Source of the DNA: a virus
DNA: 38,935 bases
IMG/VR virus record: IMGVR_UViG_3300045988_103843
Location: 1 to 38,935 of that record
Strand: one strand, 5' to 3'
Positions 14,516 through 37,919 of the stretch are shown here, in pieces. Numbering within the stretch: position 1 is the stretch's first letter; every line of letters begins with the position of its first letter. The position numbers and the translations under genes are program-made. Below the pieces are notes generated by a model. It was not told where the DNA came from and ran no database searches. It worked only from the letters and a program-made list of their open reading frames with translations.

Positions 14516-14547
14516 GCATTTAACATAAATAATACCATGTTAAATGC
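14516..14547 (-). other. Perfect 11-bp AT-rich stem-loop in the intergenic region upstream of the scaffold and capsid genes
   Basis: gcatttaacat-N10-atgttaaatgc. It overlaps the stop codon of the 14540-14878 gene. Confidence 0.35.
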
Positions 14548-14878
14548 TGCCGCCGAGGGCTTTTTTCAGCACTTGGCGGTATTGTGTGCCATGCTCAGAA
14601 GCCGCCGGCCTTAGGAAAGGCTGAGCCTTCTGGCGCGAGGTGCCGAGCTCGACGTACGGCGCGTATTCGACATTCGTCCCGATGTACACGGCGTTATCGG
14701 CAGCATCGACCTCGTATGTGATCGAGCCGCGCAGGTTGCCGGTATCGACCGGGCATTTCTTGGCGGCGTAGTTCTCGGCCAAAAGCCCGATCTCCTCGAG
14801 TGCGCGGCCGATCGCCGAGTCGATACCGTCGACTGCCTGCTCGATATTGTCTTGCTTCACCGTGACATCGCCGGCCAT
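14540..14878 (-). CDS. HK97 gp10-family neck / tail-completion protein
   Basis: VDTGNLRGSI and TNVEYAPYVELGT motifs. The internal ATG at 14878 avoids a long R/S-rich out-of-context N-terminus. Confidence 0.7.
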   Translation of the reverse strand: MAGDVTVKQDNIEQAVDGIDSAIGRALEEIGLLAENYAAKKCPVDTGNLRGSITYEVDAADNAVYIGTNVEYAPYVELGTSRQKAQPFLRPAASEHGTQYRQVLKKALGGSI

Positions 14879-14879
14879 G

Positions 14880-15113
14880 TCACTCCTCCTCGATATAGAA
14901 CGGGCAGTCGGCGCCGTCGAAATAGACCGTGTCGGGCTTGATGTTGCCGAGGCGGCGCTCGTATACGAGGCAATACGACTTGTCCGGTGAATCCTCCCAC
15001 GGCGCCGGGCCGTGCGCATTCGCACACGTCCGGCATTTGCGGGGGTTGCGTTTCAGGCAGCCGAACGAGTCGTCGGCCTCGAGGTTCGGTACTTTCTGCT
15101 TCTCAGTGGCCAT
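14880..15113 (-). CDS. Small Cys-containing hypothetical protein
   Basis: 77 aa from the ATG at 15113 (MATEKQK...). Contains C-x7-C-x2-C plus two further Cys. Confidence 0.55.
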   Translation of the reverse strand: MATEKQKVPNLEADDSFGCLKRNPRKCRTCANAHGPAPWEDSPDKSYCLVYERRLGNIKPDTVYFDGADCPFYIEEE

Positions 15114-15121
15114 GGTACTCC

Positions 15122-17734
15122 TTACTTGTATTTGTCCTTCGAGCCGGTCCACTCTTTGGGATCCTGCTGGAACTTATCGTAACCCTGCTCGGGGTGCAGC
15201 TCCAGCACGACATGCATCTTGCCGTCGGTGCCTTTGTACACGTCTGTCGCGGTGTAGTAACCGCCGCGCTGCAAGATCATCTCCGATTCCTGGCCGAAAC
15301 TGTGTTGTTCCTTCTTACCGTCCCATTCACCGTAACTTGCGCCAGAGAATGCACTGAACGGCTCCGCATACATCATCTCAGACCCGGCAGGGCAATAGAT
15401 CTCCATAGCGACAGGCTTATGGCTGAAACCTTTGCCTGCCGCAGTACCAGTCGACACGAACGACTGAATGCGGTTGGACATGCCGACGAACGATTTGAGC
15501 TCATCGGTACTCATACCGCTCAACTTCGACGCACTCGTGCCGAAGAACGACTCCATGGCGTTGTAGTCGCATCCACGCACGAGCCACGTGTCGTGGTCGT
15601 ACGTCGACTTCTCGATGAGCGACGTCATGTTGCGGATCGCCGAACCCTTGCCTTCGTAATCGATCCAAACGTCACCTGGGCCGACATAGAACTTCTTCTC
15701 CCATCCCGTGCCAGGTGCGCTATACGGCTTGCGGAAGCCAGACAACGGGCGGTTCCACGCACCGGAGGCTGCGGTATAGCCGTAGATACCCTTACGCTCT
15801 GCAGAGGTAGCTTCGCGCCAGACCTTGCCGCATCCTTCTCGGAAATGCTTGTCGGCCTCAGCCGACGAATCGAACTTCCACGCGTTCGCCTTGCGCTCCT
15901 CGCTGAATGCCGAATCTTCGACGAGTCCCAGGTCGACCATCTGTTTGTGGATCGACTGCCGCTTGAGCTTCAATGCCGACATGTTGTCGACATGTGATTT
16001 ATACGCCTGGCCTTTCTCATCGAACTCTTTCGTGTCGTCGATGAACTTCGACCACTTCGCGAATGCCTGGTCATCGCCTGCGTCCGCGGCCTTTGCGGCT
16101 TGCTCGGTGAAATAATCGAGCTTCTTGGGGATCGCGTCTTTCTTAGCGTCCCAATCGGCGAGCGTCACGGGGTCTTTCCAAATGCCGGAATACGTCTTGT
16201 CGGAACTCTTCATGAGCTCTTTCAGCACGTCGATCTCGTTATCGACATCCTTCAGCTGACTATCGAGTGCGTTGGCGAGCTTCTGCTCTTCGGTCAGCTT
16301 CTCTGTTTTCCATTCCTCGTAATTCATGTCGCCGAGTTTGTTGGCACGCTCGACTTCGTCGTACTCCACATCGCCGATAACGGGCACAAGCGTGCAGCGG
16401 CAGTTGTAGACTTCAGAGGCAGGGCCGTCCGGGTCACCCGGGTACTTCAGCCCGTTGCTGAATTCCGCATCGAGTTTGACGGTCTCGCCGTCTAGGTGGC
16501 GGTGGCTGCCGCGCGTGCGCGAATCGAGCGCCGCGAGCCATTGCTTGTCGACATCGATACCCATGTCTGCGGCGCGCTCGTATCCCTTGAGCTTGCCGAG
16601 CGAGTGCGCACTCGTAATGGCAGTGCGTGCAGCCTTCATAGCGGCACGCTGGTCCATGGCGGCGATACCGGCGATCGAGGCGGCGAGCTGCGGGACCGTC
16701 TGGCCCTGCAGCACGGCCTGCGTCACCGCAGACGTGACATGGCGGCTGTTCCAGGCAGAATCTTTCGCCTTGTCGAACGCCGCCTGCGGGAGCAGGTCGG
16801 GCTCGTTCGCGACGAGCTCCATGACGGTGTTCTTGTTGTACAGCGTGAAAGACGTGTTCGCCTTGGCGCCGTGCTCGATCTCATACGTCGCGAAGTTCAT
16901 GCCCTCCGCATACACACCGGCCGGCACTTGGTTGACGTAAGCCATAGCCATCTTGTCGGCGGCGGTGAGGTCTTGCGTTAATGCCTTCTTGAGTGCCTTG
17001 AGCTTGTCGTTGTGCAACGCCTGGTCCTTGCGCCAAGCCTTATATGCCTTCGCGTCCTTTTTGCCGGCTGCGACGTCGGCTTGCCATTTAGCATCTTCGG
17101 CAGCGAACTCTTTGAGCGAGGACTCGATACGTGCCGTCATGCCGTCAATCGCATCGGCGTAGGTGAGCTGCAGTTTCTGCTGCAGCTCCTGCGCCTGCTT
17201 CTCGAGCAGCTTGGCCTGCGCGCCGTCCTGCGCCTTCGCGGCCTTCGCTGCGAGCTTCTTGCCAGCCTTGCCGGCACCGTCCTTCGATTTGTAGCCGTTC
17301 TTGAACGTGCCATCGGGCATCAAATACCCATAAGTGCCGTCGGTGAACGTGTTGACGACATAGCCGCCCTTGTCTTCGCTCTTCAGGACCTGCGGGCCTT
17401 TCGGCTCTGCGGCTACGAGCTTGGTGGCTGCCTTCTTGGCGCCGTCTTTCGACTTGTAACCCTCTTTATGCTTGCCGCCGTCCGTCATGTAGCCATAAGT
17501 ACCGTCTGAATACGTGTCGATCTGGAAGCCGTCGAAGTATTGTGTCTTGGTGACGGTCGCAGGGCCTGCGGCTTCATCGGGTACGAGCTCGTACATACCG
17601 ATTTTCAAGGCGTACGCGGCCGCTTCCTTAAACGTCTTAAACGACTTTATCGATGGATGGTCTGTATTCGTTAGATACTTCCACCCCGACACACCCTTGA
17701 TAACGGGGACCTCGTCAATTGAGTGAATTTTCAC
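15122..17734 (-). CDS. Head morphogenesis protein (Phage_Mu_F / SPP1 gp7-like) fused to a C-terminal ADP-ribosyltransferase (R-S-E, C3/VIP2-type) domain
   Basis: MuF motif SRTRGSHRHLDGE...YNCRCTLVP in the middle. The C-terminus carries ERKGIYGYTAASGAWNRPL, WLVRG, FVSTG and QESEMILQRG. GTG start with AAGGTGA as RBS. Confidence 0.85.
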   Translation of the reverse strand: MKIHSIDEVPVIKGVSGWKYLTNTDHPSIKSFKTFKEAAAYALKIGMYELVPDEAAGPATVTKTQYFDGFQIDTYSDGTYGYMTDGGKHKEGYKSKDGAKKAATKLVAAEPKGPQVLKSEDKGGYVVNTFTDGTYGYLMPDGTFKNGYKSKDGAGKAGKKLAAKAAKAQDGAQAKLLEKQAQELQQKLQLTYADAIDGMTARIESSLKEFAAEDAKWQADVAAGKKDAKAYKAWRKDQALHNDKLKALKKALTQDLTAADKMAMAYVNQVPAGVYAEGMNFATYEIEHGAKANTSFTLYNKNTVMELVANEPDLLPQAAFDKAKDSAWNSRHVTSAVTQAVLQGQTVPQLAASIAGIAAMDQRAAMKAARTAITSAHSLGKLKGYERAADMGIDVDKQWLAALDSRTRGSHRHLDGETVKLDAEFSNGLKYPGDPDGPASEVYNCRCTLVPVIGDVEYDEVERANKLGDMNYEEWKTEKLTEEQKLANALDSQLKDVDNEIDVLKELMKSSDKTYSGIWKDPVTLADWDAKKDAIPKKLDYFTEQAAKAADAGDDQAFAKWSKFIDDTKEFDEKGQAYKSHVDNMSALKLKRQSIHKQMVDLGLVEDSAFSEERKANAWKFDSSAEADKHFREGCGKVWREATSAERKGIYGYTAASGAWNRPLSGFRKPYSAPGTGWEKKFYVGPGDVWIDYEGKGSAIRNMTSLIEKSTYDHDTWLVRGCDYNAMESFFGTSASKLSGMSTDELKSFVGMSNRIQSFVSTGTAAGKGFSHKPVAMEIYCPAGSEMMYAEPFSAFSGASYGEWDGKKEQHSFGQESEMILQRGGYYTATDVYKGTDGKMHVVLELHPEQGYDKFQQDPKEWTGSKDKYK

Positions 17735-17753: not shown

Positions 17754-19223
17754 CTAAAACATGCCGTCATCGTCGTCATCGTCATCGTCACCTTCGTTGC
17801 CAGCGGGTGCGGTGGTGTTCACCAACGTGCCCATGCGTCCCTCGTCCTCGGAATCGAGGCGTTCCTTGATCGCCGGCACCTCGCTGGGCGAGATGTTCGG
17901 CAGCTTGCGCAAAATGGTCTCGTGGTCGAGATACTGCGCCTCGCTCATGACCATGTCGACCTGCTCTTTCTGGTTGCTGATGCGTGTGCGCTTGAACACG
18001 GGCGCATCGTCGATACCCATGAGGGCGAGCAGTTGCTGCACGAACTCTGAGACTTGGTATTCGAAATCACTCGCCTCCTCGTCCATAGGCTGGTACGCAG
18101 CATCGATGTGGTCGTTGGTCGCGCCCGCGGCCACCGTATGCACATCGAGTGCGCCGAAGTCCTCGTAGATGCCCTCGCGGATCGACTGCAGGTACGCCTG
18201 GCGTGCTGCGTATGGGATCTCCTGCGTATATGCCTGGGCGTTGCCGCCGTCATCGGAGTCGACGAGCGCGACGTGGTTGATCTTCAGCCGGTCGAGGAAC
18301 TTCTGCAGGTCCTTGTCGCTCATGCCGCCAGCGTTAGACACGAGCCAGTAGATCTGTGCGCAGTCAGTGAGGTCGTTCGCGAAGCCAGAGCGGATCAGGT
18401 CATAACTGTCAATCGCCTGGCGCATGCCGACGAGTGTCGATTGGTGCAGCTTCGAGCCCCACATCGGCACCACCGGCAACGCAGAGTAGTTCTCGCCGCC
18501 GATGACCTGCTCGATGCCGTCGGCGGGCGTATAGCTCGTCTTCTCGATATAGGGCCGTTTCTCCTCGACGACATCGAGGCGCTCAGCGCTCGCACCGTTC
18601 GCGTCCTTGTAGCTCTGGAAACGCGTGTAGCCATCAGGCTCGTAGAGCACGGCCTGCATCGGGCGCGACTGGTCGATACGCCAGAAGCGGATGCCTGCCT
18701 TGAGCGTGCCGTCGTATTCGTCCCACAGCGGGCAGAACTCGGTCAGCGGGAACACGAACATGCGGTCGAGGTTCCAGAAACCGAAGCACACGCCGTGGAT
18801 GAGCGCGTCGTACGCGAGCGTGCGCAGGTCGTGGTCGAAATGCTTGCCGAGCTTCTCCTTGGTCGTGTCCTCCTGGCCGATCTCGTCGACGTCGATGAAC
18901 GACACGCCCTGACCGAGCGAGTACATCGTGCGCTGGGTGTTCAGGCGGTGGAAGAAATTGCTAGCGATCTTGTTGTTGCTCGCCGTGAAGTCGACGAGCT
19001 TGGACCCGGTGATGTCGAAAACCTTCTGCACGTACTTGTTGATCGTCGTGTTCTCCTGGCGGTCATACGCATCGGCCATGCGCGCCGTGCGGTACGCCTT
19101 ACCCGACTTATGGCGCTCGATCGCCTCCAACACGAAGCCCTCGCGGTTGGCGTCACCCGCCTCCACGAAATCCTGGTACGTGAGCATGCGCGACTTGTCG
19201 TCGCGTACGTCGTCCCATCTCAT
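17754..19223 (-). CDS. Portal protein (SPP1 gp6-like) with a poly-Asp C-terminus
   Basis: 489 aa, ATGA overlap with the TerL stop. C-terminal GDDDDDDDDGMF. Confidence 0.88.
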   Translation of the reverse strand: MRWDDVRDDKSRMLTYQDFVEAGDANREGFVLEAIERHKSGKAYRTARMADAYDRQENTTINKYVQKVFDITGSKLVDFTASNNKIASNFFHRLNTQRTMYSLGQGVSFIDVDEIGQEDTTKEKLGKHFDHDLRTLAYDALIHGVCFGFWNLDRMFVFPLTEFCPLWDEYDGTLKAGIRFWRIDQSRPMQAVLYEPDGYTRFQSYKDANGASAERLDVVEEKRPYIEKTSYTPADGIEQVIGGENYSALPVVPMWGSKLHQSTLVGMRQAIDSYDLIRSGFANDLTDCAQIYWLVSNAGGMSDKDLQKFLDRLKINHVALVDSDDGGNAQAYTQEIPYAARQAYLQSIREGIYEDFGALDVHTVAAGATNDHIDAAYQPMDEEASDFEYQVSEFVQQLLALMGIDDAPVFKRTRISNQKEQVDMVMSEAQYLDHETILRKLPNISPSEVPAIKERLDSEDEGRMGTLVNTTAPAGNEGDDDDDDDDGMF

Positions 19224-20497
19224 AATGCGAACCTCCTAGGCTCCCCGTTCTCGCCGCCGAAGAACGGCGACTCGTATACCATATCCCTCGGCCGGTACAC
19301 GCGTTTCGTCCTCACGAAATACCTCAGTGCATCCATGCCGTGGTCGTCGACCTTGACCGGCTTGTCTTGGTCTGCCTTATCATCCCATACATAGCCGGTG
19401 AACTCGCGCGCCAATTCTGTGAGCGTGTCGCCGATTTTGACCTGTCCCAACTGCATTGCGCTCGCGGTGTCGCGCACGCCGTCACCGACATCGTTGTCGG
19501 CCTTCCTCACTTTGAACCCGCCGCGCCTGCGCAGCTGCGCGATAAACGACGACGCGCTGGGGTCGACTATGATCTCGACGTCTGCTTCTTCCGGGGCGTC
19601 GTTCGTGAACACAACCAGGTCGTCGACATAATCGGGGTCGGTCTTCTGCCTGCCTTCCTCGCGTCCCGAGTAGCGGTACTCGCCGACCGCATGCCACGTG
19701 CCAGACGCATCGAGCATCCACTTGATCGCATGGAGCGGGTTCTGCGTTCCGTAGTCGACGCTCACGCAGTAGCCGCGTACGTCTTCCGGCTTCTCAGGTG
19801 ACCATGTCGGTTCCTGCGCATCCTTCCAGTTCGGGTACACGAGGCCCTCGGCCTTCGCCCATAGGCCCCTGATGTATCGGTCGTAGTACACGGTGCCTCG
19901 GTACTCGGCCTTGAGGCCTTCGACATAGGCACGTGGCAGGAACGGGTTGTCGTCGATCGTGTACCTCTGCACGAACATGTCGATACCGGGGTCTGCCTCA
20001 CCCTTATCGATGAACTGCTTGAGCCAATGGGTCGGTCCCGCCGGGTTGCATGCGCCGTGGCACTCGCTGTACGGCAAAGAGAGTCGGCTCTTCAGCATCT
20101 CGAACACGTCGGGGTGGATGTCGCAGATCTCGTCGCAGTAGGCGAACTTGACCTCCGCGCCGCGCAGCTTCGATACCTGGCCTGCGTTCTCGGCGCCGAT
20201 GCAGTACACGCGCTCGCCGAAGACCTCGCACCAGTTGCGGGCGTTGATGTCGCCGACGAACTTATCGCCCCACATGTCACGCATAGGCGTGAGCACGTTT
20301 CGCTCGATATTCTCCTTGGTCGCGCCCAAGATCAGCGCCAGGCCCTTCTTGCCGCGCAGTTTGATCAGCCTGTCGGGGATCGTGTACTGCACGGCCAGGT
20401 GGCTCTTGCCCGAGCGCACGGCACCGGTCGCGAGGTTCCACCTATGGTGCGCCTCGCGTACGTATTCCGCCTGCTTAGGCGTCAGGTGCACCTCCAT
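19220..20497 (-). CDS. terL: Terminase large subunit
   Basis: The ATG at 20497 (MEVHLTPKQAEY...). Walker A GAVRSGKS, Walker B-like YCDEI, nuclease half with D-rich motifs. Confidence 0.9.
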   Translation of the reverse strand: MEVHLTPKQAEYVREAHHRWNLATGAVRSGKSHLAVQYTIPDRLIKLRGKKGLALILGATKENIERNVLTPMRDMWGDKFVGDINARNWCEVFGERVYCIGAENAGQVSKLRGAEVKFAYCDEICDIHPDVFEMLKSRLSLPYSECHGACNPAGPTHWLKQFIDKGEADPGIDMFVQRYTIDDNPFLPRAYVEGLKAEYRGTVYYDRYIRGLWAKAEGLVYPNWKDAQEPTWSPEKPEDVRGYCVSVDYGTQNPLHAIKWMLDASGTWHAVGEYRYSGREEGRQKTDPDYVDDLVVFTNDAPEEADVEIIVDPSASSFIAQLRRRGGFKVRKADNDVGDGVRDTASAMQLGQVKIGDTLTELAREFTGYVWDDKADQDKPVKVDDHGMDALRYFVRTKRVYRPRDMVYESPFFGGENGEPRRFAL

Positions 20498-20975
20498 CTG
20501 CCACCTCCTCGATCTGCACGAGCACGTTCTTGACGTCGATGATGTCGCCGTCGTCCGCAGGCAGCTGCGGCTGCATCGAGCGCCAGGCGTCACCGCGGCG
20601 GTTGAACAGCCACATGGCGATTGCCTTCACGTCTGCCGGCACGTGCTTCTTGACCTTCTTGGTCAATACCTCCATGCCCGTGTCGGGGTCACGTGACCAG
20701 GTCTCTTCGAAGTAGTCATACCCGAGCGCTCGCCGGAGCAGGGCGCCCTCGACCTGACCGTCTACGAGGTCCTCGGTGACGGTGAGCGCCTTGTCCAGCT
20801 CGGGCGACTGCTGGCGCCACTTCAAGAGCGTCGTGTGCGCGACGCCGATCTTGTCCTCGGCGATCGCCTTCACGGAGAGGCCTCGACGCCTCCAGTCGTT
20901 GATCAGCTCGATGCCGTCCTCGCCGAGCCAATAGCGCTTGCGCTGCACCGCGTTGTTGAATTTGATATACGGCAT
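20475..20975 (-). CDS. terS: Terminase small subunit (HTH-containing)
   Basis: 166 aa directly upstream of, and overlapping, terL. HTH-like LSVKAIAEDKIGVAHTTLLKW. Confidence 0.75.
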   Translation of the reverse strand: MPYIKFNNAVQRKRYWLGEDGIELINDWRRRGLSVKAIAEDKIGVAHTTLLKWRQQSPELDKALTVTEDLVDGQVEGALLRRALGYDYFEETWSRDPDTGMEVLTKKVKKHVPADVKAIAMWLFNRRGDAWRSMQPQLPADDGDIIDVKNVLVQIEEVADGGAPDA

Positions 20976-21003
20976 TTGCCTCCACTCCTTCTACATCGAA
21001 ATA

Positions 21004-21032
21004 TATTATACGACGCCTGCAGCGGGCATTCG
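21004..21032 (-). promoter_or_regulatory. Candidate late promoter (TCGAAT-N17-TATAAT) upstream of terS
   Basis: On the minus strand, TATAAT (plus 21004-21009) lies about 28 nt upstream of the terS ATG and is followed by GGAGTGGAGG. The -35 element is weak. Confidence 0.4.
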
Positions 21033-21046
21033 AGTGTGCGCTCTGC

Positions 21047-21138
21047 CGTGTATACTGTGCATACTGTGTATATGCGGTATGCACAGTCAGGGCTCGGTCG
21101 GCGTTTCGATTTTTGCGACTGTGTATACTGTGTATACC
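21047..21138. repeat. TGTATACTGTG-type short repeats (two clusters) upstream of terS
   Basis: gtgtatactgtgcatactgtgtata at 21047-21072 and tgtgtatactgtgtatac at 21119-21136. Confidence 0.7.
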
Positions 21139-21194
21139 CACCAGCATCGAATTGAAACGCCCCTATATGTTCACCGACGTCAACATACACGCCG

Positions 21195-21611
21195 TCAACT
21201 GCCTGTCACACTGCTGTCAAACACCTGTCACACCGCTTTTTTCGATTTATCTGCACCGTGTGACAGGTAGTCTCGACAAAACGCGACGTAGATGCACGTA
21301 TTTGCAACTACCTGTCACACTGTCACACTGACATGCTCCCCTATACCCCGATATTTTGAGAATAATATATTTATCATTTGATGAATATACCTATAGAAAA
21401 TATCTAATATAGGGCCGGCCTGCTGTTTGCCAGTGTGACACTTGGGTACCCAACAATTTACCTACGTCGCGTTTTGATGCCTACTACCTGTCACACTGGC
21501 CCGAAAACAGTGTGACAGCATGTGTGACAGTAACTCACGCAAAACACCGCCACACATGCCATCACGTCGCGTTTCGCCACTTACTACCTGTCAACCACGC
21601 AGATAAATCGG
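21195..21611. promoter_or_regulatory. Non-coding regulatory hub A: array of ACCTGTCACACTG and AAACGCGACGTAG motifs around an inverted repeat with a 39-nt AT-rich spacer
   Basis: At least 9 exact TGTCACAC/GTGTGACA sites in both orientations. Tandem site at 21309-21330. IR arms at 21338-21357 and 21397-21414. Outer IR cgatttatctgc (21242-21253) / gcagataaatcg (21600-21611). Collinear with 37613-37915. Confidence 0.8.
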
Positions 21612-21638
21612 AAAGTGCCAATTTCGGCCCTCAGGCAT

Positions 21639-21675
21639 GAAAAACGGCCCCGAGGCTCATATCCGCCTCGGGGCC
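21639..21675 (-). terminator. Rho-independent terminator ending the early/accessory operons
   Basis: Perfect 11-bp GC-rich stem ggccccgaggc / gcctcggggcc with an 8-nt loop, followed on the minus strand by GTTTTTC. Lies about 80 nt downstream of the stop at 21755. Confidence 0.8.
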
Positions 21676-21754
21676 CTGCAAGTATACGCGCCAACGCAAA
21701 ACTGCGCCTTCTACGTATGCTACAATCATTTTTAGATATGTTTCTGCGCTGCCC

Positions 21755-23756: not shown

Positions 23757-24584
23757 CTAGATACATTGCTCGATAACTGCCTTGCCGCGCAGCTGGCCGA
23801 CCCACTTCGGAGGGATGGCCTCGAAACCGTAATATGTGCCGGCTAGCGCTCCGGCCACTGCCGCCGTGGTGTCTGTGTCGTCGCCGAGCTCGACTGCCTT
23901 GAGCACACAGTCTTCGTATGAGTGCGTGTTCAGGAAACACCACAGCGCCGCCTCGAGTGTGTGCTCGCAGTATCCATCGCTTTTGACGGCGCCGACAGGC
24001 CTCGATGCGATGTGCCCGTACCTGCGCCAGAGGTCGACTTTAGCCGGCGTGCCGACGTTTCGGATGGTCCGCAGCATGTCGCACAACGCGACGCATGACC
24101 ACTCGGCCACGGGGTGCGCATGGGTGATTGCTGAGACCTCGCGTATATGGTAGGGTTCAGCGTAGTCGATCATGGCGAGCGGCGCCGTCCTCATGAGCGA
24201 CCCGTTGCCGCACCCGTCATATGACTTCGCGGGCACGCCCGTCGTGATCGCCTTCCGGCACGTCATGCCGGTGTCGAAAACACGCCCGTCGCACGTGAAC
24301 TCACCGTCCTGCAGCCATCGGTGGAACCTGTCTGCGATGTCCGCAAAATCGATATATGCGCGATGCTTGATACTCGAGCAGATGCACAGGGCCATCGACG
24401 TGTCATCGGACCACGTACCGGCTGGCTGCCCATGAGCGCCGCCATCTACCATGCCGGTGCAATCGAACGTACCACGCTCGCAAAACTCATACGGCACGCC
24501 CAAGGCGTCACCGACTGCGAGCCCGTATATACACGAGCGCATGCGGTCCCTGTCATAATGCACGCAGTTATGCGTGGTCGACAT
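23757..24584 (-). CDS. ADP-ribosylglycohydrolase (ARH/DraG family)
   Basis: GLAVGDALG, GTWSDDTSM, GNGSLMR and LGDDTDTTAAVAGALAG. The full set of binuclear-metal motifs is present. Confidence 0.88.
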   Translation of the reverse strand: MSTTHNCVHYDRDRMRSCIYGLAVGDALGVPYEFCERGTFDCTGMVDGGAHGQPAGTWSDDTSMALCICSSIKHRAYIDFADIADRFHRWLQDGEFTCDGRVFDTGMTCRKAITTGVPAKSYDGCGNGSLMRTAPLAMIDYAEPYHIREVSAITHAHPVAEWSCVALCDMLRTIRNVGTPAKVDLWRRYGHIASRPVGAVKSDGYCEHTLEAALWCFLNTHSYEDCVLKAVELGDDTDTTAAVAGALAGTYYGFEAIPPKWVGQLRGKAVIEQCI

Positions 24585-27803: not shown

Positions 27804-27849
27804 GGGAACACCCCAGATGCGATTGCGCGTCTGGGGTGTTCTTCTTTTT
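27804..27849. terminator. Bidirectional Rho-independent terminator between convergent genes
   Basis: gggaacaccccagatgcg / cgcgtctggggtgttc stem with one G-T pair. A T-run (ttcttttt) follows on the plus strand. On the minus strand the hairpin lies just after the dCMP deaminase stop. Confidence 0.7.
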
Positions 27850-28297
27850 ACTGTGCACTTGTGACGACTTCGACGCCTGCATTGCCTATCATGCGCATGC
27901 ACACCGGGCATGGCGATATGTCGCCGGCAGGGATGCGCTCGCCTGTCTCGAGGTCGACACCGGCCAAATACAGCGTGGCGCCGATCATCTCAGAGCGCGA
28001 GGCCGACAGCATCGCGTTCATCTCGGCGTGTACCGCCGGGCATGAGCCGTAATCACCGTCGTTATGCCCGTGGCCATGGCGGTGGCATATGCCCACATCC
28101 GTACAGTTGACGTCGCCGCGTGCGGCACCGTTGTAGCCGGTGGCGATGATCTCGTCGTTGGCCACAATCACGGCACCGTAGCGGCGGCGCAGGCACGTCG
28201 ACCTTGCCGCCACGGCTAACGCGATGTCGAGGTAGTACTCAGCTTTACTAGGCCTCGCCGGTCGATCCGAAAGCACCGTCGCCCCTCTCTTCGCCAA
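27848..28297 (-). CDS. dCMP deaminase (CMP/dCMP zinc deaminase family)
   Basis: HAEMNA and PCPVC zinc motifs; EYYLDIALAVAARSTC N-terminal helix. The likely true start is the GTG at 28276 (GAGAGGGG upstream) rather than the TTG at 28297. Confidence 0.88.
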   Translation of the reverse strand: MAKRGATVLSDRPARPSKAEYYLDIALAVAARSTCLRRRYGAVIVANDEIIATGYNGAARGDVNCTDVGICHRHGHGHNDGDYGSCPAVHAEMNAMLSASRSEMIGATLYLAGVDLETGERIPAGDISPCPVCMRMIGNAGVEVVTSAQ

Positions 28298-28667
28298 GCT
28301 GTTCGACGAAATCGGCCAACACGATCGGCATGACGACGAGCTGGCCGATACGGGTACCGCCCGGCACCTTCTTGAGTTTGTCGGTCAAGTTGGTGACGAT
28401 CGCGTGTACCTCGCCGGTGTAGCCGGAATCGATCGGCGGCAGCTCGCACACGAGGCCTTCGAGGCTCATGCCAGATCGCGGGAACACGCAGGCCATGACG
28501 CCGTCAGGCAGCTCGAGCGAGAAGCCCAACGGGATGCGGCGGGTCTCATGCGGCTTCAGGGTCTCACCGAAAGTGGTGTATACGTCTGCCCCGGCATCGT
28601 TGTAATGCGCACGCACCGGGAGCTTGACGTCTGAGGCCTCGCCGATACGGTTGATCTTAATCTTCAT
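28248..28667 (-). CDS. dut: Trimeric dUTPase-fold nucleotidohydrolase (dUTPase; dCTPase activity not excluded)
   Basis: AGADV, PRSG, IDSGYTGE, RIGQLV and RGDGAFGSTG, which are dUTPase motifs I-V. RBS GGAGGT. Confidence 0.88.
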   Translation of the reverse strand: MKIKINRIGEASDVKLPVRAHYNDAGADVYTTFGETLKPHETRRIPLGFSLELPDGVMACVFPRSGMSLEGLVCELPPIDSGYTGEVHAIVTNLTDKLKKVPGGTRIGQLVVMPIVLADFVEQLGEERGDGAFGSTGEA

Positions 28668-29475
28668 CCTTTACCTCCGTGATGATGGCGTTATTGAGAC
28701 AATATTCTGATACGGCAGGCCTCGGTGTGTCGGACGACATCGCGATGCGTTCGATCTCCGAGATATGGGCTAAAAACTTCTCGATGTCGAATTTGAGATG
28801 CGGTGCAGTATGCTTGCAGCACCAGACGCCACGGACGCGGTCGATGTCCTTAGTATATGCGTGAAGCGACACCGCGAAATGCGTGTACTTGCCGTATTCG
28901 ACGCCGAGTTCGTTCGCGATATGCTTCTGCAGCTCCGTGAAGAACACGACGTCATAAGGCGTGCCGAGCCACACGTCGTTGGAACGCATGATGCCGGTGC
29001 AATCGAGCTTGCCCTCGCGGAGCTCGAATACGAGGGCGATCGTGCAGATCTCGTCTTTCGTCTCGAAGCGCTTGGGGTTCGGCACGTTGAAATTGATGAC
29101 CGCACGACGCGAAGTCGGGTCGCGCTTAAGTGTGTCGATGACCTGCGCGACCTGGTCGAAGCCATAGCGGTTGAACACGATGGCGCCGTACGCCGATCGG
29201 TTCGTCGCGCCGTCATCGCTGATATGCTTCCAGAACGACGAAAACTTCGAGATGAACTCGACGTCGTCGCGGCCGGTGAAATACCATGCCAGCTCACCGA
29301 GCATATATGAAAGCGAGTAGCCGGTGCGTGCCGTCGCGATGTTGTCAGTGATGTCGAGCAGCGTGAAACCGCTATTGAGCAGTTCCTTTGTGCCGGCGAC
29401 CTCTTGGCCCTGTACTGAGATCTTGCCGCACAGTTGGCGGTAGATGTCGTTCATCGACTTGCCTACAACATGCAT
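28657..29475 (-). CDS. Thymidylate-synthase-fold deoxypyrimidylate hydroxymethylase/methylase, T4 gp42 (dCMP hydroxymethylase)-like with an Asp specificity residue
   Basis: GELAWYF (catalytic Glu), DPTSRRAV, DEICTIALVF (nucleophile Cys) and MRSNDVWLGTPYD. Aligned by eye with E. coli ThyA QRSCDVFLGLPFN and T4 gp42 MRSNDVVFGFRND, Asp replaces the ThyA Asn177. RBS AAGGAGG. Confidence 0.8.
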   Translation of the reverse strand: MHVVGKSMNDIYRQLCGKISVQGQEVAGTKELLNSGFTLLDITDNIATARTGYSLSYMLGELAWYFTGRDDVEFISKFSSFWKHISDDGATNRSAYGAIVFNRYGFDQVAQVIDTLKRDPTSRRAVINFNVPNPKRFETKDEICTIALVFELREGKLDCTGIMRSNDVWLGTPYDVVFFTELQKHIANELGVEYGKYTHFAVSLHAYTKDIDRVRGVWCCKHTAPHLKFDIEKFLAHISEIERIAMSSDTPRPAVSEYCLNNAIITEVKDED

Positions 29476-29939
29476 TTCAAAACCTCCTTAATACACCAAT
29501 CGACGTCATTGTCGTCCAAAGTGATCACACTGCTATTTGCGGCGGCGAACTCCTCGTAACGACGATAAATGAGCCCGATACTATCGGTGATGACGTCGCC
29601 GAACTCGTCGCCACGTAGTGTGAGGCGCCGCACCACCTCAGCGAGCGGCGGTAACACGATGACGATCGGGATGCCTAAGACAGAACACATGTAAGTCAGT
29701 TTCTCACAAGCATCGTTGTCGATACGTTGGGTGCGGCCAAATATATCGGCGTAAATTTGTTCGCTGATCCAGCAGCGGTCGATCACGACGCCGTCACATG
29801 CGAGCTTCTGCATGTACTCGGTGGCCGACTGTCCGCCGTTGCACGTCATCTTCAAGATGTTCATGTCGAGTTTATCGGCGAGCGCCTTCGCAAGCGTGGA
29901 CTTGCCGGCACCGTCAGGGCCTTCGATGATGATAGGCAT
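29463..29939 (-). CDS. Thymidylate-kinase-like dNMP kinase (short form)
   Basis: P-loop IIIEGPDGAGKST and a Tmk-like DRCWISEQIY (DRxxxSxxxY) motif. 158 aa. RBS GAAGGAG. Confidence 0.75.
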   Translation of the reverse strand: MPIIIEGPDGAGKSTLAKALADKLDMNILKMTCNGGQSATEYMQKLACDGVVIDRCWISEQIYADIFGRTQRIDNDACEKLTYMCSVLGIPIVIVLPPLAEVVRRLTLRGDEFGDVITDSIGLIYRRYEEFAAANSSVITLDDNDVDWCIKEVLKCML

Positions 29940-33558: not shown

Positions 33559-34026
33559 CTAATCGAGTTCGAAAATATCGGTGATCTGGAAGGTGTCGAA
33601 GCCCTTGTTGTTCTCACCGTACTCGAGGCCGTACTCGAATTTGCCGTCGATGTACTCGGTGATGTCGAGCAGCAGGTCGTTGTAATCGGCGTACCCAGTG
33701 AACTCGACATCGATACCGGAATCGTCAGGCAGCAGCGAGCGGAGGAAAGAGTTCATAATGTGGATCTGGAAACCCTGCGTGATAACCTGGTTCATGAAAA
33801 TACGCTGGCCCTTGAGCTCGCCGTCGCTGACGATCTTCATCCAGCACGATACCATAGGCTTACCGGTCTTCTTGGTCTCGGTGAGCTCGAGCTTGTCGAT
33901 TGAGACCTCATAGTCACCGTGTGGCACGTCCTTGAAATCGGCACCGCCACCGTTGGCCTCTGCGTCGGCGATGTCCTTCTTAAGGCCGTCGATGTCGACC
34001 ATCTTGTCAAACTTGCTGAAATCCAT
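33559..34026 (-). CDS. DUF669-like protein (putative ssDNA-binding partner of the Sak4-type ATPase)
   Basis: The ATG at 34026 (MDFSKFDKMV...). VPHGDYEVSIDKLELTETKKTGKPM pattern, and a position after an AAA_24-type ATPase. Confidence 0.6.
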   Translation of the reverse strand: MDFSKFDKMVDIDGLKKDIADAEANGGGADFKDVPHGDYEVSIDKLELTETKKTGKPMVSCWMKIVSDGELKGQRIFMNQVITQGFQIHIMNSFLRSLLPDDSGIDVEFTGYADYNDLLLDITEYIDGKFEYGLEYGENNKGFDTFQITDIFELD

Positions 34027-34051
34027 GATATGTTGTCCTTTCAATCAGTAA

Positions 34052-37334: not shown

Positions 37335-37528
37335 TACGAGAAGAACATTGACTTGATCTCCTCGCCAGTCAAGTCATACCGGTCTGCGATAGCCTTGATC
37401 TCAGACTGTCGGAACTCGGACCTGCCGTTGATCTTCCACGACAGTGTGGATTCTGTCACGCCGAGCATTCGTGCGAGCTCGCCTTGGGTGTCCCCGAACT
37501 CGCGGATAGTTTCAAATAGGCTCTTCAT
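37334..37528 (-). CDS. Cro/XRE-like HTH regulator, first gene of the early operon
   Basis: 64 aa. TQGELARMLGVTESTLSWKING helix-turn-helix. RBS GGAGGT. Confidence 0.75.
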   Translation of the reverse strand: MKSLFETIREFGDTQGELARMLGVTESTLSWKINGRSEFRQSEIKAIADRYDLTGEEIKSMFFS

Positions 37529-37556
37529 CTTTCACCTCCTTCGATCGGCGAACCTC

Positions 37557-37619
37557 ATTATACTGCGTTTCGTTTCGATTTATTCGAGTATTTATAACTT
37601 TTTTTGAAATACGTGTCAA
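37557..37619 (-). promoter_or_regulatory. Candidate tandem early promoters
   Basis: Minus-strand TTGACA (37614-37619)-N17-TATAAA (37591-37596), plus a proximal TATAAT (37557-37562) about 28 nt upstream of the ATG at 37528. Confidence 0.55.
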
Positions 37620-37915
37620 ACTGTCAAACACCTGTCACACTGCTGATTTTAGGCCTGTTTGACAGTAAATTGCATCCCTATGTCGCGTTTTGCCGTACCT
37701 GTCACACTGTCACACTGTTTCTCCCCTATACCTAGATATTTTCAAAAGTATATACTATAGGCTTATTAGATATATAGATAAAAAATATCTAATATAGGGG
37801 CCCCTTGTTGTTTGACAGCTTGACAGGTGATGAGAAACGCGACGTAGAGATGCAAACACCTGTCACACTGGCCCTTTTAGCGGTGTGACAGGTGATGGAC
37901 ACTGTTTGACAGGTA
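37613..37915. promoter_or_regulatory. Non-coding regulatory hub B, collinear with hub A
   Basis: ctgtcaaacacctgtcacactg at 37621-37642. Tandem site at 37696-37717. IR arms at 37723-37742 and 37782-37800 with a 39-nt AT spacer. aaacgcgacgtag at about 37845-37857, with a reverse copy at about 37677-37691. Several TTTGACAG variants. Confidence 0.8.
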
Positions 37916-37919
37916 CTAA

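What the first reader, a model, noticed from the sequence alone, without database searches (positions are those of the whole stretch)
15122..15900. ADP-ribosyltransferase toxin domain fused to the portal-associated MuF/gp7-like head protein
- Seen: the C-terminal roughly 250 aa of the 870-aa head morphogenesis protein carry the R-S-E triad of C3/VIP2-type ARTs, in the canonical order. These are WLVRG, FVSTG and QESEMILQRG, preceded by ERKGIYGYTAASGAWNRPL.
- Established: MuF/SPP1 gp7-type proteins are packaged in the capsid near the portal and leave with the DNA. MuF-toxin fusions are known, and T4 Alt is a packaged ART that modifies host proteins on injection.
- Inference: this ART is probably delivered into the cell at infection. 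The same genome encodes an ARH-family hydrolase (23757-24584), which suggests a write/erase or toxin/immunity pair.
Basis: partly seen in the sequence, partly recalled or inferred. Interest (0 to 1): 0.7.

Follow-up and report, generated by a model that had tools for sequence, protein, structure and literature searches.

The report
Phage head protein carrying ADP-ribosyltransferase toxin
A gut phage (probably infecting Collinsella) fuses a C3/VIP2-type ADP-ribosylating toxin domain to its portal-associated MuF head protein, an architecture already described in other phages; the new detail here is a small cysteine-rich gene that travels with the toxin and is its likeliest inhibitor.

Summary
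ORF 15122-17734 (-) encodes an 870-aa protein with a Phage_Mu_F core (aa 332-449) and a C-terminal ADPrib_exo_Tox domain (aa 637-843), both above Pfam thresholds. R720, S761-T762 and E816-x-E818 align with the catalytic residues of C3-like ARTs. An AF2 model (pLDDT 88) matches C3bot, C3stau2, VIP2 and CDTa at Foldseek probability 1.0. The domain is under purifying selection (dN/dS 0.14).

This architecture is already published: MuF polymorphic toxins, Bxa/BAH/Bsi, MuF-VIP2 fusions in lytic Microbacterium phages, and the Aravind-group surveys. It is a new member of a known kind.

Among phages with >=90% identical portals, the region after MuF residue ~476 (YEEWK) is ART, an HExxH domain, or absent.

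The ARH (23757-24584) is DraG/Tri1-like. The ART and ARH best match the two chains of one solved ART-ARH toxin-immunity pair (8za7). However, the ARH lies 6 kb away beyond a strong terminator, is intact and constrained in relatives lacking the ART, and is deleted in two that keep it.

It has no known family or fold and follows E-x-E-type MuF-ARTs even at 35% ART identity. It is the likelier cognate inhibitor. Virion delivery is inferred only.

The parts
15122..17734 (-). MuF-ART gene: 870 aa, GTG start, stop codon included
   Evidence: ORF list. Pfam Phage_Mu_F plus ADPrib_exo_Tox. More than 600 homolog clusters, the top 120 at 78-93% identity, nearly all carrying both domains.
17225..17734 (-). 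N-terminal region (aa 1-170) with a tandem ~55-aa duplication (aa ~57-112 and 113-168; motif DGTYGY...GYKSKDGAxKAxKKL). No known family.
   Evidence: Self-alignment scores 135. Copy number is 1-3 in relatives. It is the fastest-evolving segment (dN/dS 0.20).
16307..17224 (-). MuF/gp7-like core (aa 171-476), ending at the conserved YEEWK motif (aa 472-476), which is the junction where C-terminal cassettes are swapped
   Evidence: Pfam aa 332-449 and PHROG head-morphogenesis families aa 166-483. dN/dS 0.065. Junction mapped by comparison with the metallopeptidase-type, short and deletion variants.
15875..16306 (-). Helical, acidic linker or pre-toxin region (aa 477-620) that travels with the ART domain
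   Evidence: Present only where the ART is present, including in distant loci L043, L064, L068 and L077. Conserved KTYSGIWKD motif in alignment A1. dN/dS 0.16.
15125..15874 (-). C3/VIP2-like ADP-ribosyltransferase domain (aa 621-870; Pfam match aa 637-843 = window 15206-15826)
   Evidence: dN/dS 0.14.
15575..15577 (-). Codon of catalytic Arg R720 (WLVRG)
   Evidence: Aligned with the catalytic Arg of C3stau2. R at this position in about 114 of 120 homologs.
15449..15454 (-). Codons of S761-T762 (the S-T-x motif, FVSTG)
   Evidence: S761 is nearly invariant in A1. SFVSTG occurs in 97 of 120 homologs. Aligned with the STS of C3-like ARTs.
15281..15289 (-). Codons of E816-S817-E818 (E-x-E ARTT motif)
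   Evidence: E818 is invariant and E816 nearly invariant in A1. E-x-E occurs in 109 of 120 homologs with a variable middle residue: S 61, F 39, P 8. Aligned with the Q-x-E of C3stau2.
14880..15113 (-). orf77: a 77-aa Cys4 protein (CxxC...C...KP...C), the candidate cognate inhibitor or immunity protein of the ART. Its ribosome-binding site (AAGGAG) overlaps the MuF-ART stop codon, and its own stop is 1 nt before the next gene's ATG.
   Evidence: Gene called in the source contig. Junction sequence. No Pfam, PHROG or NCBIfam family. The family has 76 clusters at 50% identity. dN/dS 0.065. Co-occurs with E-x-E-type MuF-ARTs. No structural match in the PDB.
23757..24584 (-). ADP-ribosyl(arginine) hydrolase, DraG/Tri1-like, 275 aa; metal-site motifs GDALG, SDDT and GDDTDT are intact
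   Evidence: Pfam PF03747 at 8e-60. Best solved relative is Lmo0067 (8za7_A) at 1.5e-40; 6dre and DraG structures are also hit. NCBIfam Tri1 at 3e-48 and DraG at 5e-41, both below the equivalog cut-offs. Motifs checked.
21646..21675 (-). Strong intrinsic terminator (11-bp stem, 10 G-C pairs, T-run) separating the ARH-containing upstream block from the terS-terL-portal-MuF-ART-orf77 block
17754..19223 (-). SPP1 gp6-type portal gene immediately upstream of the MuF-ART gene (context)
   Evidence: Pfam PF05133 at 5e-31 and PHROG 64.

Best explanation
The gene encodes a MuF-family polymorphic toxin or effector.

Shown here:
- A conserved MuF/gp7-like core (aa 171-476) is followed, after a YEEWK junction, by an exchangeable cassette. 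In this phage the cassette is a helical linker plus a C3/VIP2-fold ART with an intact R / S-T / E-x-E site.
- The cassette also includes a tightly coupled 77-aa Cys4 gene (orf77).
- The ART is under purifying selection.

Inferred mechanism:
- As with SPP1 gp7, a few copies of the protein are built into the capsid at the portal and leave with the DNA.
- The ART then uses NAD+ to mono-ADP-ribosylate arginine residues of host proteins early in infection. Arginine is inferred from the E-x-E motif, from Bxa, and from the arginine-specific type of the phage's hydrolase.
- When the protein is made late in infection, orf77 binds and blocks it until it is packaged. This parallels Bsi for Bxa and Tis1 for Apk2.
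- The DraG/Tri1-like ARH is encoded in a separate upstream transcription unit. It removes ADP-ribose from arginines. It acts as a back-up or eraser for the phage's own ART and, because it is kept in relatives without the ART, probably also against ARTs brought in by related phages or by the host.

The phage looks non-temperate. It has its own polymerase, primase, helicase and nucleotide-metabolism genes and no integrase. A host-takeover role therefore fits better than a prophage-borne weapon between bacteria.
For: Domain identity and fold.

Catalytic residues: conserved in about 109-114 of 120 homologs; E818 is invariant across relatives down to 28% identity.

Selection: dN/dS is 0.14 for the ART and 0.065 for orf77.

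Cassette swapping at YEEWK among phages with >=90% identical portals: ART type; HExxH type (L021, L029, L033); short type (L018); clean deletions (L014, L015). Distant MuFs carry Zeta toxin, glutamine deamidase and metallopeptidase domains.

orf77 linkage: present in 22 of 22 close ART+ loci and absent from 9 ART- loci, apart from two recent deletion variants. In the distant set it follows 5 of 6 E-x-E-type ART MuFs by HMM; the sixth has a Cys-rich ORF with the same pattern. This includes a second ART subfamily (L062). It follows 0 of 31 non-ART MuFs (Fisher p about 1e-5).

Gene coupling.

ARH type, and the joint match of ART and ARH to 8za7 chains B and A.

Precedents: Bxa/BAH/Bsi tested in E. 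coli, with Bxa shown to be arginine-specific (PMC11699363). Apk2, where the binder is always present and the hydrolase is variable (PMC10083569). gp7 is in the capsid at the portal (PMC5576092). MuF-ARTs are predicted to be head-packaged (PMC9503650). MuF-VIP2 fusions occur in lytic Microbacterium phages (PMC7302621).

Lifestyle. A 55-bp terminal repeat indicates a complete genome.
Against: Nothing here shows that the protein is in virions, is ejected, or is enzymatically active. The target and the modified residue are unknown.

A few homologs lack one of the glutamates (GFG, GFE, KFE; 7 of 120). These could be sequencing errors or inactive variants.

orf77 has no similarity to Bsi or to any known immunity family. 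Its fold has no PDB match. A complex prediction could not be run. Its linkage to the ART could partly reflect physical adjacency within one recombination unit. One ART-type MuF (L056, Q-x-E type) has no orf77.

The ARH shows no association with the ART among close relatives: intact in 10 of 13 ART+ and 6 of 8 ART- loci, p = 1. Those loci are one lineage, so they are not independent observations.

A decayed copy of the ART end, orf77 and the ARH sits in a bacterial-looking contig (L088). Some relatives may therefore integrate, and the lytic assignment rests only on the absence of recognisable lysogeny genes.
Confidence: 0.7

Rival explanations
1. The protein is a Bxa-like fitness factor or interbacterial toxin. 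It would be made from a resident phage or prophage, released on lysis, and would act on neighbouring bacteria or on gut epithelial cells rather than on the newly infected host. orf77 and the ARH would serve as immunity for the producing cell.
For: Bxa is a MuF-ART from a gut prophage with these activities. PHROG 16625 'Bxa' is the best ART-specific phage family. The phage comes from the human gut. Jamet et al. found MuF toxins only in temperate phages. A decayed relative lies in a bacterial contig (L088).
Against: No integrase, repressor or other lysogeny gene was found in a complete 38.9-kb genome that has its own replication and nucleotide-metabolism modules. The only genome-collection match is a phage-sized MAG contig, not an integrated copy. 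The ART is only 31% identical to the Bxa-like protein. The neighbouring genes differ: there is no Bsi homolog, and the ARH belongs to a different clade and lies 6 kb away.
Confidence: 0.15
2. The ARH is not the partner of this ART. It would be an independent anti-defence or cross-protection enzyme. It would reverse arginine ADP-ribosylation imposed by host defence ARTs, or by the ARTs of competing related phages. orf77 alone would be the ART's cognate inhibitor.
For: The ARH is intact in 6 of 8 close relatives whose MuF lacks the ART, with dN/dS 0.10 at dS about 0.5. It is deleted or split in 3 of 13 that keep the ART. It sits in a different transcription block, beyond a strong terminator. The Aravind-group survey argues that phage ARG/ARH enzymes target macromolecular ADP-ribose adducts. 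In Apk2 systems the hydrolase is likewise dispensable.
Against: The ART and the ARH best match the two chains of a single solved toxin-immunity pair. The ARH's arginine-type specificity matches an E-x-E ART. In the distant set the only ARH found (L051) is in a phage with the ART and orf77. All three also persist together in the L088 remnant. The close relatives are one recent lineage, so retention after a recent cassette swap is possible.
Confidence: 0.35
3. The C-terminal domain is not a protein-arginine transferase. It could be an NAD+ glycohydrolase, a nucleic-acid ADP-ribosyltransferase, or a catalytically dead structural appendage.
For: No activity was measured. Some ART-fold toxins are NADases (for example Tne5). 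A few homologs have lost a glutamate. Some relatives in alignment A1 have S or T in place of the catalytic Arg.
Against: All three catalytic elements are conserved and under purifying selection. The closest structures and profiles are all protein-modifying C3/VIP2-type ARTs. The E-x-E relative Bxa modifies arginine. The genome carries an arginine-type ADP-ribosylhydrolase.
Confidence: 0.08

Closest known systems
MuF polymorphic toxins (Jamet et al. 2017, PMC5576092), also treated as MuF-anchored polyvalent or packaged effectors (Iyer et al. 2017 PMC5512222; 2022 PMC9503650)
   Same: N-terminal Phage_Mu_F domain. The gene follows the portal. The C-terminal toxin domain is swapped among close relatives. 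A small ORF lies immediately downstream. ART is a listed toxin type (14% of 191 MuF toxins), and MuF fusions to Alt/VIP2 ARTs are stated explicitly.
   Different: The family was reported as exclusive to temperate phages, whereas this genome has no detectable lysogeny genes. The downstream small ORF belongs to an unannotated Cys4 family.
Bxa / BAH / Bsi of the Bacteroides stercoris prophage (Alexei et al. 2024, PMC11699363), with a Bxa-like locus in Bacteroides phage Versailles (ON453897)
   Same: A MuF-ART of about 870 aa with an E-x-E motif. The ART domains are 31% identical (E 3e-27). The same phage encodes an ADP-ribosylhydrolase and a small non-enzymatic protein next to the toxin.
   Different: The ARH is not adjacent (6 kb away, same strand, separate block). 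It is DraG/Tri1-like and only 23% identical to the hydrolase in the Bxa-type locus of phage Versailles; Bxa's own hydrolase BAH is described as ARH1-like. orf77 has no similarity to either small ORF flanking the Bxa-like gene. The host phylum differs (Actinomycetota, Collinsella, against Bacteroidota). This is not a prophage.
ART-ARH toxin-immunity pairs: Lmo0066/Lmo0067 of Listeria (PDB 8za7) and Tre1/Tri1 of Serratia (6dre identified as Tri1 from memory; the Tri1 family match is from NCBIfam)
   Same: Lmo0066 is the ART's best solved relative by sequence (E 5.6e-14) and by TM-score (0.83). The ARH's best solved relative is Lmo0067 (E 1.5e-40), and its best NCBIfam match is Tri1.
   Different: Those are adjacent, secretion-system-associated gene pairs. 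Tri1 carries an N-terminal extension, which from memory also blocks the toxin by binding. The phage ARH match starts at Tri1 position 65, so it lacks that extension. It is unlinked from the ART and persists without it.
MuF-VIP2 fusions in Microbacterium phages Percival, Goodman and Johann (Jacobs-Sera et al. 2020, PMC7302621)
   Same: Actinobacterial siphoviruses. The fusion sits in the structural operon. Cluster EJ phages are lytic with their own DNA polymerase and primase. A relative (Floof) lacks the toxin domain.
   Different: No close sequence relationship was found: no full-length match in the phage collection, and the best MuF-core hit is 39%. No ARH or orf77-type partner is reported there.
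Phage T4 Alt (packaged ART)
   Same: An ART-fold enzyme carried in the head and injected with the DNA to modify host proteins on arginine. Functionally it is the closest model for what is proposed here.
   Different: From memory, Alt is a free internal head protein targeted by a capsid-targeting sequence and processed by the prohead protease; it is not a MuF fusion. Only the ART fold is shared.

Membership tests
C3/VIP2-type R-S-E mono-ADP-ribosyltransferases (Pfam PF03496 ADPrib_exo_Tox) | Family HMM match above the curated threshold | tested here: met
   44.9-47.7 bits against a cut-off of 23.4.
C3/VIP2-type R-S-E mono-ADP-ribosyltransferases (Pfam PF03496 ADPrib_exo_Tox) | Catalytic Arg, S-T-S motif and (Q/E)-x-E ARTT motif in this order, aligned to those of solved enzymes | tested here: met
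   R720, S761-T762 (third position Gly) and E816-x-E818 align to C3stau2. Conservation shown.
C3/VIP2-type R-S-E mono-ADP-ribosyltransferases (Pfam PF03496 ADPrib_exo_Tox) | ART fold | tested here: met
   AF2 pLDDT 88. Foldseek probability 1.0, TM 0.72-0.83 to C3bot, C3stau2, VIP2, CDTa and 8za7_B.
C3/VIP2-type R-S-E mono-ADP-ribosyltransferases (Pfam PF03496 ADPrib_exo_Tox) | NAD+-dependent ADP-ribosylation of a protein substrate | not testable with these tools
   Needs an enzyme assay.
MuF polymorphic toxins | N-terminal Phage_Mu_F domain, with the gene in the head-morphogenesis module next to the portal | tested here: met
   PF04233 at 3.9e-15. The portal gene ends 19 nt upstream.
MuF polymorphic toxins | C-terminal domain polymorphic among otherwise near-identical relatives | tested here: met
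   ART, HExxH-domain, short and deletion variants at >=90% portal identity. Other toxin domains occur in distant relatives.
MuF polymorphic toxins | Small ORF (<150 aa) immediately downstream, as a putative immunity gene | tested here: met
   orf77 lies 8 nt after the stop codon and co-varies with the ART.
MuF polymorphic toxins | Encoded by a temperate phage or prophage (a reported property rather than a strict criterion) | tested here: not met
   No integrase or repressor in the complete genome. No integrated copy in the genome collection. Lytic precedents exist.
MuF polymorphic toxins | Protein present in the virion and delivered with the DNA | not testable with these tools
   Needs virion proteomics or infection assays. 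Reported as untested for MuF toxins in general.
Bxa-BAH-Bsi system | Bxa-type MuF-ART | tested here: met
   PHROG 16625 at 1e-18. 31% identity over the ART to the Bxa-like protein of phage Versailles.
Bxa-BAH-Bsi system | Adjacent ARH1-like hydrolase (BAH) | tested here: not met
   The ARH is 6 kb away, DraG/Tri1-like, and 23% identical to the Versailles ARH.
Bxa-BAH-Bsi system | Bsi-family binding immunity protein | tested here: not met
   orf77 shows no similarity to either small ORF flanking the Bxa-like gene.
ART-ARH toxin-immunity pair (Tre1-Tri1 / Lmo0066-Lmo0067 type) | Homologous ART and homologous DraG-like ARH in one genome | tested here: met
   8za7_B and 8za7_A are the best solved relatives. 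Tri1 is the best NCBIfam match.
ART-ARH toxin-immunity pair (Tre1-Tri1 / Lmo0066-Lmo0067 type) | Adjacent, co-transcribed genes | tested here: not met
   About 6 kb and a strong terminator lie between them.
ART-ARH toxin-immunity pair (Tre1-Tri1 / Lmo0066-Lmo0067 type) | Co-occurrence of the ARH with the ART across relatives | tested here: inconclusive
   Close set: intact ARH in 10 of 13 ART+ loci and 6 of 8 ART- loci, p = 1, but this is one lineage. Distant set: the only ARH found is in an ART+ phage, L051.
ART-ARH toxin-immunity pair (Tre1-Tri1 / Lmo0066-Lmo0067 type) | N-terminal extension of the ARH (in Tri1, from memory, it occludes the toxin) | tested here: not met
   275 aa; the match begins at position 65 of the 361-position Tri1 model.

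The most novel reading that the evidence does not exclude
The 77-aa Cys4 protein (orf77) would define a new, unannotated family of zinc-ribbon-like inhibitors specific for E-x-E-type ARTs fused to MuF. It would be the obligate partner of the toxin. The DraG/Tri1-like ARH would be a separately maintained gene that protects infected cells against arginine ADP-ribosylation from any source, including the ARTs of competing sibling phages in a population that is polymorphic for the toxin cassette. This would be a two-tier arrangement, private inhibitor plus shared eraser, in an apparently lytic gut phage.
Probability: 0.4. Interest if true: 0.5.

Novelty: new member of a known kind. Interest (0 to 1): 0.3.

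Why it matters
The phage group is abundant in human-gut metagenomes: more than 600 protein clusters, and many near-complete 35-40 kb contigs. It probably infects Collinsella, a genus of medical interest for which I know of few characterised phages.

The group provides a natural allelic series on one nearly identical backbone: ART, HExxH-domain, no-toxin and clean-deletion variants, each with or without an intact ARH. That is a good system for the still-open question of what MuF-fused toxins do, whether host takeover on injection or competition between bacteria or between phages.

It also offers a candidate new ART-inhibitor family (orf77).

The central observation itself, an ART fused to MuF, adds no new principle.

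Tried and rejected
1. AF2 prediction of an ART-linker-orf77 chimera, to test binding.
2. Fold search of the orf77 model against the PDB. It gave no matches, so the fold says nothing about function.
3. An orf77-anchored scan of viral contigs. The 67-member alignment had no usable conserved stretch. A smaller alignment gave one pattern that mostly re-found the same phage group, so it provided no independent test.
4. Word-index homolog searches with the ART domain alone and with orf77. They returned few hits. The exhaustive HMMER search was needed to size the orf77 family. Its three long multi-stretch hits are repeat artefacts, one of them a synthetic FN3 concatemer.
5. A DNA-level search of deposited phages found no match. 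The protein-level search found no full-length relative.
6. The genome-collection scan for integrated prophages found only a phage-sized MAG contig labelled Collinsella, plus distant hits.
7. A search for a second ART in the window, using Pfam and PHROGs on ORFs of unknown function. None was found.
8. The literature search for Lmo0066 returned nothing.
9. L062 first looked like an orf77 without an ART. Inspection showed that its MuF carries a different, canonical ART that my subfamily HMM had missed. This prompted a Pfam scan of all the 'non-ART' MuFs, which revealed one Q-x-E ART without orf77 (L056).
10. No Rfam family or tRNA was found in the window.


Full report
**1. Observation**

The window is a complete phage genome. 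It has a 55-bp exact terminal repeat and 57% GC. The source is a 39,007-bp human-gut metagenome contig, and both assemblies imply a circular length of 38,880 bp. Essentially all real genes are on the minus strand.

ORF 15122-17734 (-) encodes 870 aa, with a GTG start preceded by AAGGTGA. The gene order is terS (20475-20975), terL, SPP1-type portal (17754-19223), this gene, a 77-aa ORF, a gp10-like gene, scaffold and major capsid protein.

- aa 646-664: the Y-x-Y-T...N-x-P-L helix
- R720 in WLVRG
- S761-T762 in FVSTG
- E816-S-E818 in QESEMILQRG

**2. Is it an ART?**

Yes, by four independent lines of evidence.

- **Family models.** Pfam ADPrib_exo_Tox is above threshold (E 1e-11 to 1e-12), and Phage_Mu_F is above threshold at aa 332-449. 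The PHROG named 'Bxa ADP-ribosyl transferase' matches aa 598-846 at E 1e-18.
- **Profile against solved structures.** A 24-sequence profile hits Lmo0066 (5.6e-14), C3stau2 (6.9e-11), C3larvin, BECa, C3bot and CdtA. The R, S-T and E-x-E columns align to their catalytic residues.
- **Predicted fold.** An AF2 model (pLDDT 88, pTM 0.85) matches C3-family, Certhrax, CDTa and VIP2 structures at probability 1.0 and target-normalised TM 0.72-0.83.
- **Conservation.** E818 is invariant down to 28% identity. E816, S761 and G721 (the residue after the catalytic Arg) are nearly invariant. Among 120 full-length homologs, Arg is kept in about 114, S-T in about 103 and E-x-E in 109, with a free middle residue: S 61, F 39, P 8.

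dN/dS against about 20 close relatives is 0.14 for the ART. That is purifying selection, with dN about 2.5-3 times that of the MuF core, portal and TerL. The E-x-E form, as opposed to the Q-x-E of C3, is the arginine-specific type. The E-x-E relative Bxa was shown to modify arginine.

**3. What kind of gene is it?**

I collected 80 viral loci through the portal gene, at 96% down to 56% portal identity. I scored them by tblastn and by profile HMMs.

Among phages with >=90% identical portals, the MuF core stays 93-96% identical up to the motif YEEWK (aa 472-476). After that point there are four states:
- linker plus ART plus orf77 (22 loci)
- a ~240-aa HExxH domain, probably a metallopeptidase, with no small ORF after it (L021, L028-L033; split into two ORFs in L027)
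- a short MuF with no toxin domain (L018)
- clean deletions of the ART (L014; and L015, which fuses MuF in frame to orf77)

More distant MuFs carry Zeta-toxin, glutamine-deamidase, lethal-factor-like and Mx-peptidase domains. This is the signature of a polymorphic toxin locus, as defined for MuF by Jamet et al..

**4. The overlooked partner: orf77 (14880-15113)**

The AAGGAG ribosome-binding site of orf77 includes the last two bases of the MuF-ART stop codon. Its ATG follows 8 nt after that stop, and its own stop is 1 nt before the next gene's ATG. It is strongly constrained (dN/dS 0.065).

It has four nearly invariant cysteines (CxxC...C...KP...C). No Pfam, PHROG or NCBIfam family matches it. 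An exhaustive search of 1.84 billion representative proteins found only 76 clusters, almost all stand-alone proteins of 64-126 aa. Its AF2 model (core pLDDT 86-89) has no PDB match.

Its distribution follows the ART:
- **Close set.** All 22 ART+ loci have it. The 9 ART- loci lack it. The two recent deletion variants are the only ART- loci that keep it.
- **Distant set, ART-type MuFs.** It follows L035, L043, L051 and L077 (ART 35-49% identical). It also follows L062, whose MuF carries a different, canonical ART (YTGSSY...LRRG...FTSTS...GEGETLL). L064 has a 68-aa ORF with the same Cys pattern, below the HMM threshold.
- **Distant set, others.** It follows none of 31 assessable non-ART MuFs, and it does not follow the single Q-x-E-type ART (L056).

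Fisher p is about 1e-5; physical linkage and shared ancestry inflate this figure.

orf77 is unrelated to Bsi: it shows no similarity to either small ORF flanking the Bxa-like gene of phage Versailles. The simplest reading is a cognate binding inhibitor, analogous to Bsi for Bxa and Tis1 for Apk2. A complex prediction could not be run.

**5. The ARH (23757-24584)**

It is a bona fide ADP-ribosylglycohydrolase (PF03747, 8e-60) with the GDALG, SDDT and GDDTDT motifs intact.

Its nearest solved relative is Lmo0067 (8za7_A, 1.5e-40), which is the immunity chain of the complex whose toxin chain (8za7_B) is the ART's best relative. Further hits are 2cwc, 6dre and DraG structures. NCBIfam ranks Tri1 (ADP-ribosylarginine hydrolase) and DraG first, both below the equivalog cut-offs. 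The match starts at Tri1 position 65, so the N-terminal extension of Tri1 is absent.

The genomic evidence, however, does not show an obligate pair:
- The ARH is about 6 kb from the ART, in the block of small genes after the replication and nucleotide-metabolism modules. A strong intrinsic terminator at 21675-21646 separates it from the packaging and structural block.
- Among close relatives it is intact in 10 of 13 ART+ loci and in 6 of 8 ART- loci. It is deleted in L019 and L024 and split in L020, all of which keep the ART (p = 1).
- In ART- phages it is still under purifying selection (dN/dS 0.10 at dS about 0.5, against 0.13 in ART+ phages).

Points in favour of a link:
- In the distant set the only ARH seen is in L051, which has the ART and orf77.
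- A decayed remnant in a high-GC bacterial contig keeps the ART's last ~47 residues, an orf77 homolog and an ARH within 3 kb (L088).

The pattern of 'binder always, hydrolase sometimes' is exactly what was reported for Apk2 MuF toxins. I conclude that the ARH is plausibly a second-line eraser for this ART. It also has a role that does not depend on the phage's own ART, such as protection against ARTs of sibling phages or of the host.

**6. Lifestyle and host**

The genome encodes a helicase, an exonuclease/annealing protein, SSB, DNA polymerase, primase, thymidylate synthase and kinase, dUTPase, dCMP deaminase and an endolysin. No ORF of integrase size is left unassigned, and no repressor was recognised.

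The only hit in 185,579 species genomes is a 36.6-kb, phage-sized contig binned with an uncultured Collinsella. Another homolog is labelled Collinsella aerofaciens MAG. No deposited phage matches at the DNA level.

The phage is therefore probably a non-temperate siphovirus of Collinsella. This departs from the 'temperate only' statement of Jamet et al.. It has precedent in the lytic Microbacterium Cluster EJ phages, which carry MuF-VIP2 fusions.

**7. Mechanism: what is shown and what is inferred**

Shown:
- domain identity, fold, catalytic residues and selection
- the cassette structure of the locus
- coupling and co-variation of orf77 with the ART
- the type of the ARH and its independence from the ART

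Inferred:
- The MuF core places a few copies at the portal, as for SPP1 gp7.
- The fusion leaves with the DNA and ADP-ribosylates arginines of host proteins early in infection.
- orf77 holds newly made toxin inactive late in infection.
- The ARH erases arginine-ADP-ribose.

Packaging and injection of any MuF toxin were still described as untested in 2023.

**8. Novelty and score**

Prior publications cover the main elements:
- MuF-ART fusions: PMC5576092, PMC5512222, PMC9503650, PMC7302621
- an ARH and a small binder as dual immunity: PMC11699363
- the head-packaging hypothesis

This is a new member of a known kind. It comes from an abundant but uncultured gut phage group.

The modest new content is threefold: the orf77 family as a candidate ART inhibitor, the evidence that the ARH is maintained independently of the toxin, and the natural allelic series. 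Interest is 0.3.

Noticed in passing
window 20976-21754 and 37335-37919: Two gene-free, AT-shifted regions (48.7% GC in the first, against 57% overall) carry arrays of the motif CCTGTCACAC in both orientations: 8 copies at 21202-21531 and 6 copies at 37631-37913. In total there are 18 matches with up to 1 mismatch against 3.0 expected, reached by 0 of 100 shuffles. They lie upstream of the packaging/structural block and of the helicase/replication block. They are probably operator or iteron sites for a phage regulator.
   Followed up: partly
window 21646-21675 (- strand): A strong intrinsic terminator (11-bp stem, 10 G-C pairs, T-run) lies at the end of the block of small genes that contains the ARH, just before the motif array and terS. 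It suggests separate early/middle and late transcription units.
   Followed up: no
window 17225-17734 (aa 1-170 of the MuF-ART protein): A tandem ~55-aa duplication (DGTYGY...GYKSKDGAxKAxKKL) with no known family. Relatives have 1-3 copies, and a distant MuF (L035) also starts with one copy. It is the fastest-evolving part of the protein (dN/dS 0.20).
   Followed up: partly
L021, L028-L033 (for example L029:11620-13419); split into two ORFs in L027: Sibling phages with >=90% identical portals replace the linker-ART-orf77 cassette with a ~240-aa domain containing HIMHEFAHAYAD (HExxH, probably a metallopeptidase). They also have a different MuF N-terminus, and no small ORF follows.
   Followed up: partly
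L014:7808-9190 and L015:11484-13013: Natural clean deletions of the ART. L014 joins MuF aa ~482 to the last ~11 residues and keeps orf77. L015 fuses MuF aa ~505 in frame to orf77 residue 15. They would serve as ready-made negative controls.
   Followed up: partly
L088:5810-9669: A high-GC bacterial-looking contig (MBOAT, DltD, beta-lactamase genes) carries a remnant of the ART C-terminus (aa 812-858, 62% identical), an orf77 homolog (64%), a truncated gp10-like gene and an ARH (51%) within about 3 kb. It looks like a decayed integrated relative, or capture of the toxin-immunity genes.
   Followed up: partly
L056:2146-3771: A distant MuF with a small C3-like ART of the Q-x-E type (FMSTT...EEQQEVLLERG). 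The gp10-like gene follows it directly, with no orf77-type gene. orf77 therefore seems specific to the E-x-E ARTs.
   Followed up: partly
window 27848-29939 and 33559-34044: A compact nucleotide-metabolism block (dCMP deaminase, dUTPase, thymidylate synthase, thymidylate-kinase-like protein) plus SSB, next to primase, DNA polymerase, exonuclease/annealing protein and helicase. There is no integrase, tRNA or Rfam hit anywhere in the genome.
   Followed up: yes
window 14540-14878 (- strand): An HK97-gp10-like (tail-completion/neck-type) gene sits between the MuF module and the scaffold and major-capsid genes. This is an unusual position, and it is conserved across the whole portal-anchored set.
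   Followed up: no
homologs P0094, P0119, P0127-P0131: Several database homologs show scattered substitutions towards G, R and P, including loss of catalytic glutamates (GFG, GFE). These could be error-prone assemblies or genuinely inactivated alleles.
   Followed up: no
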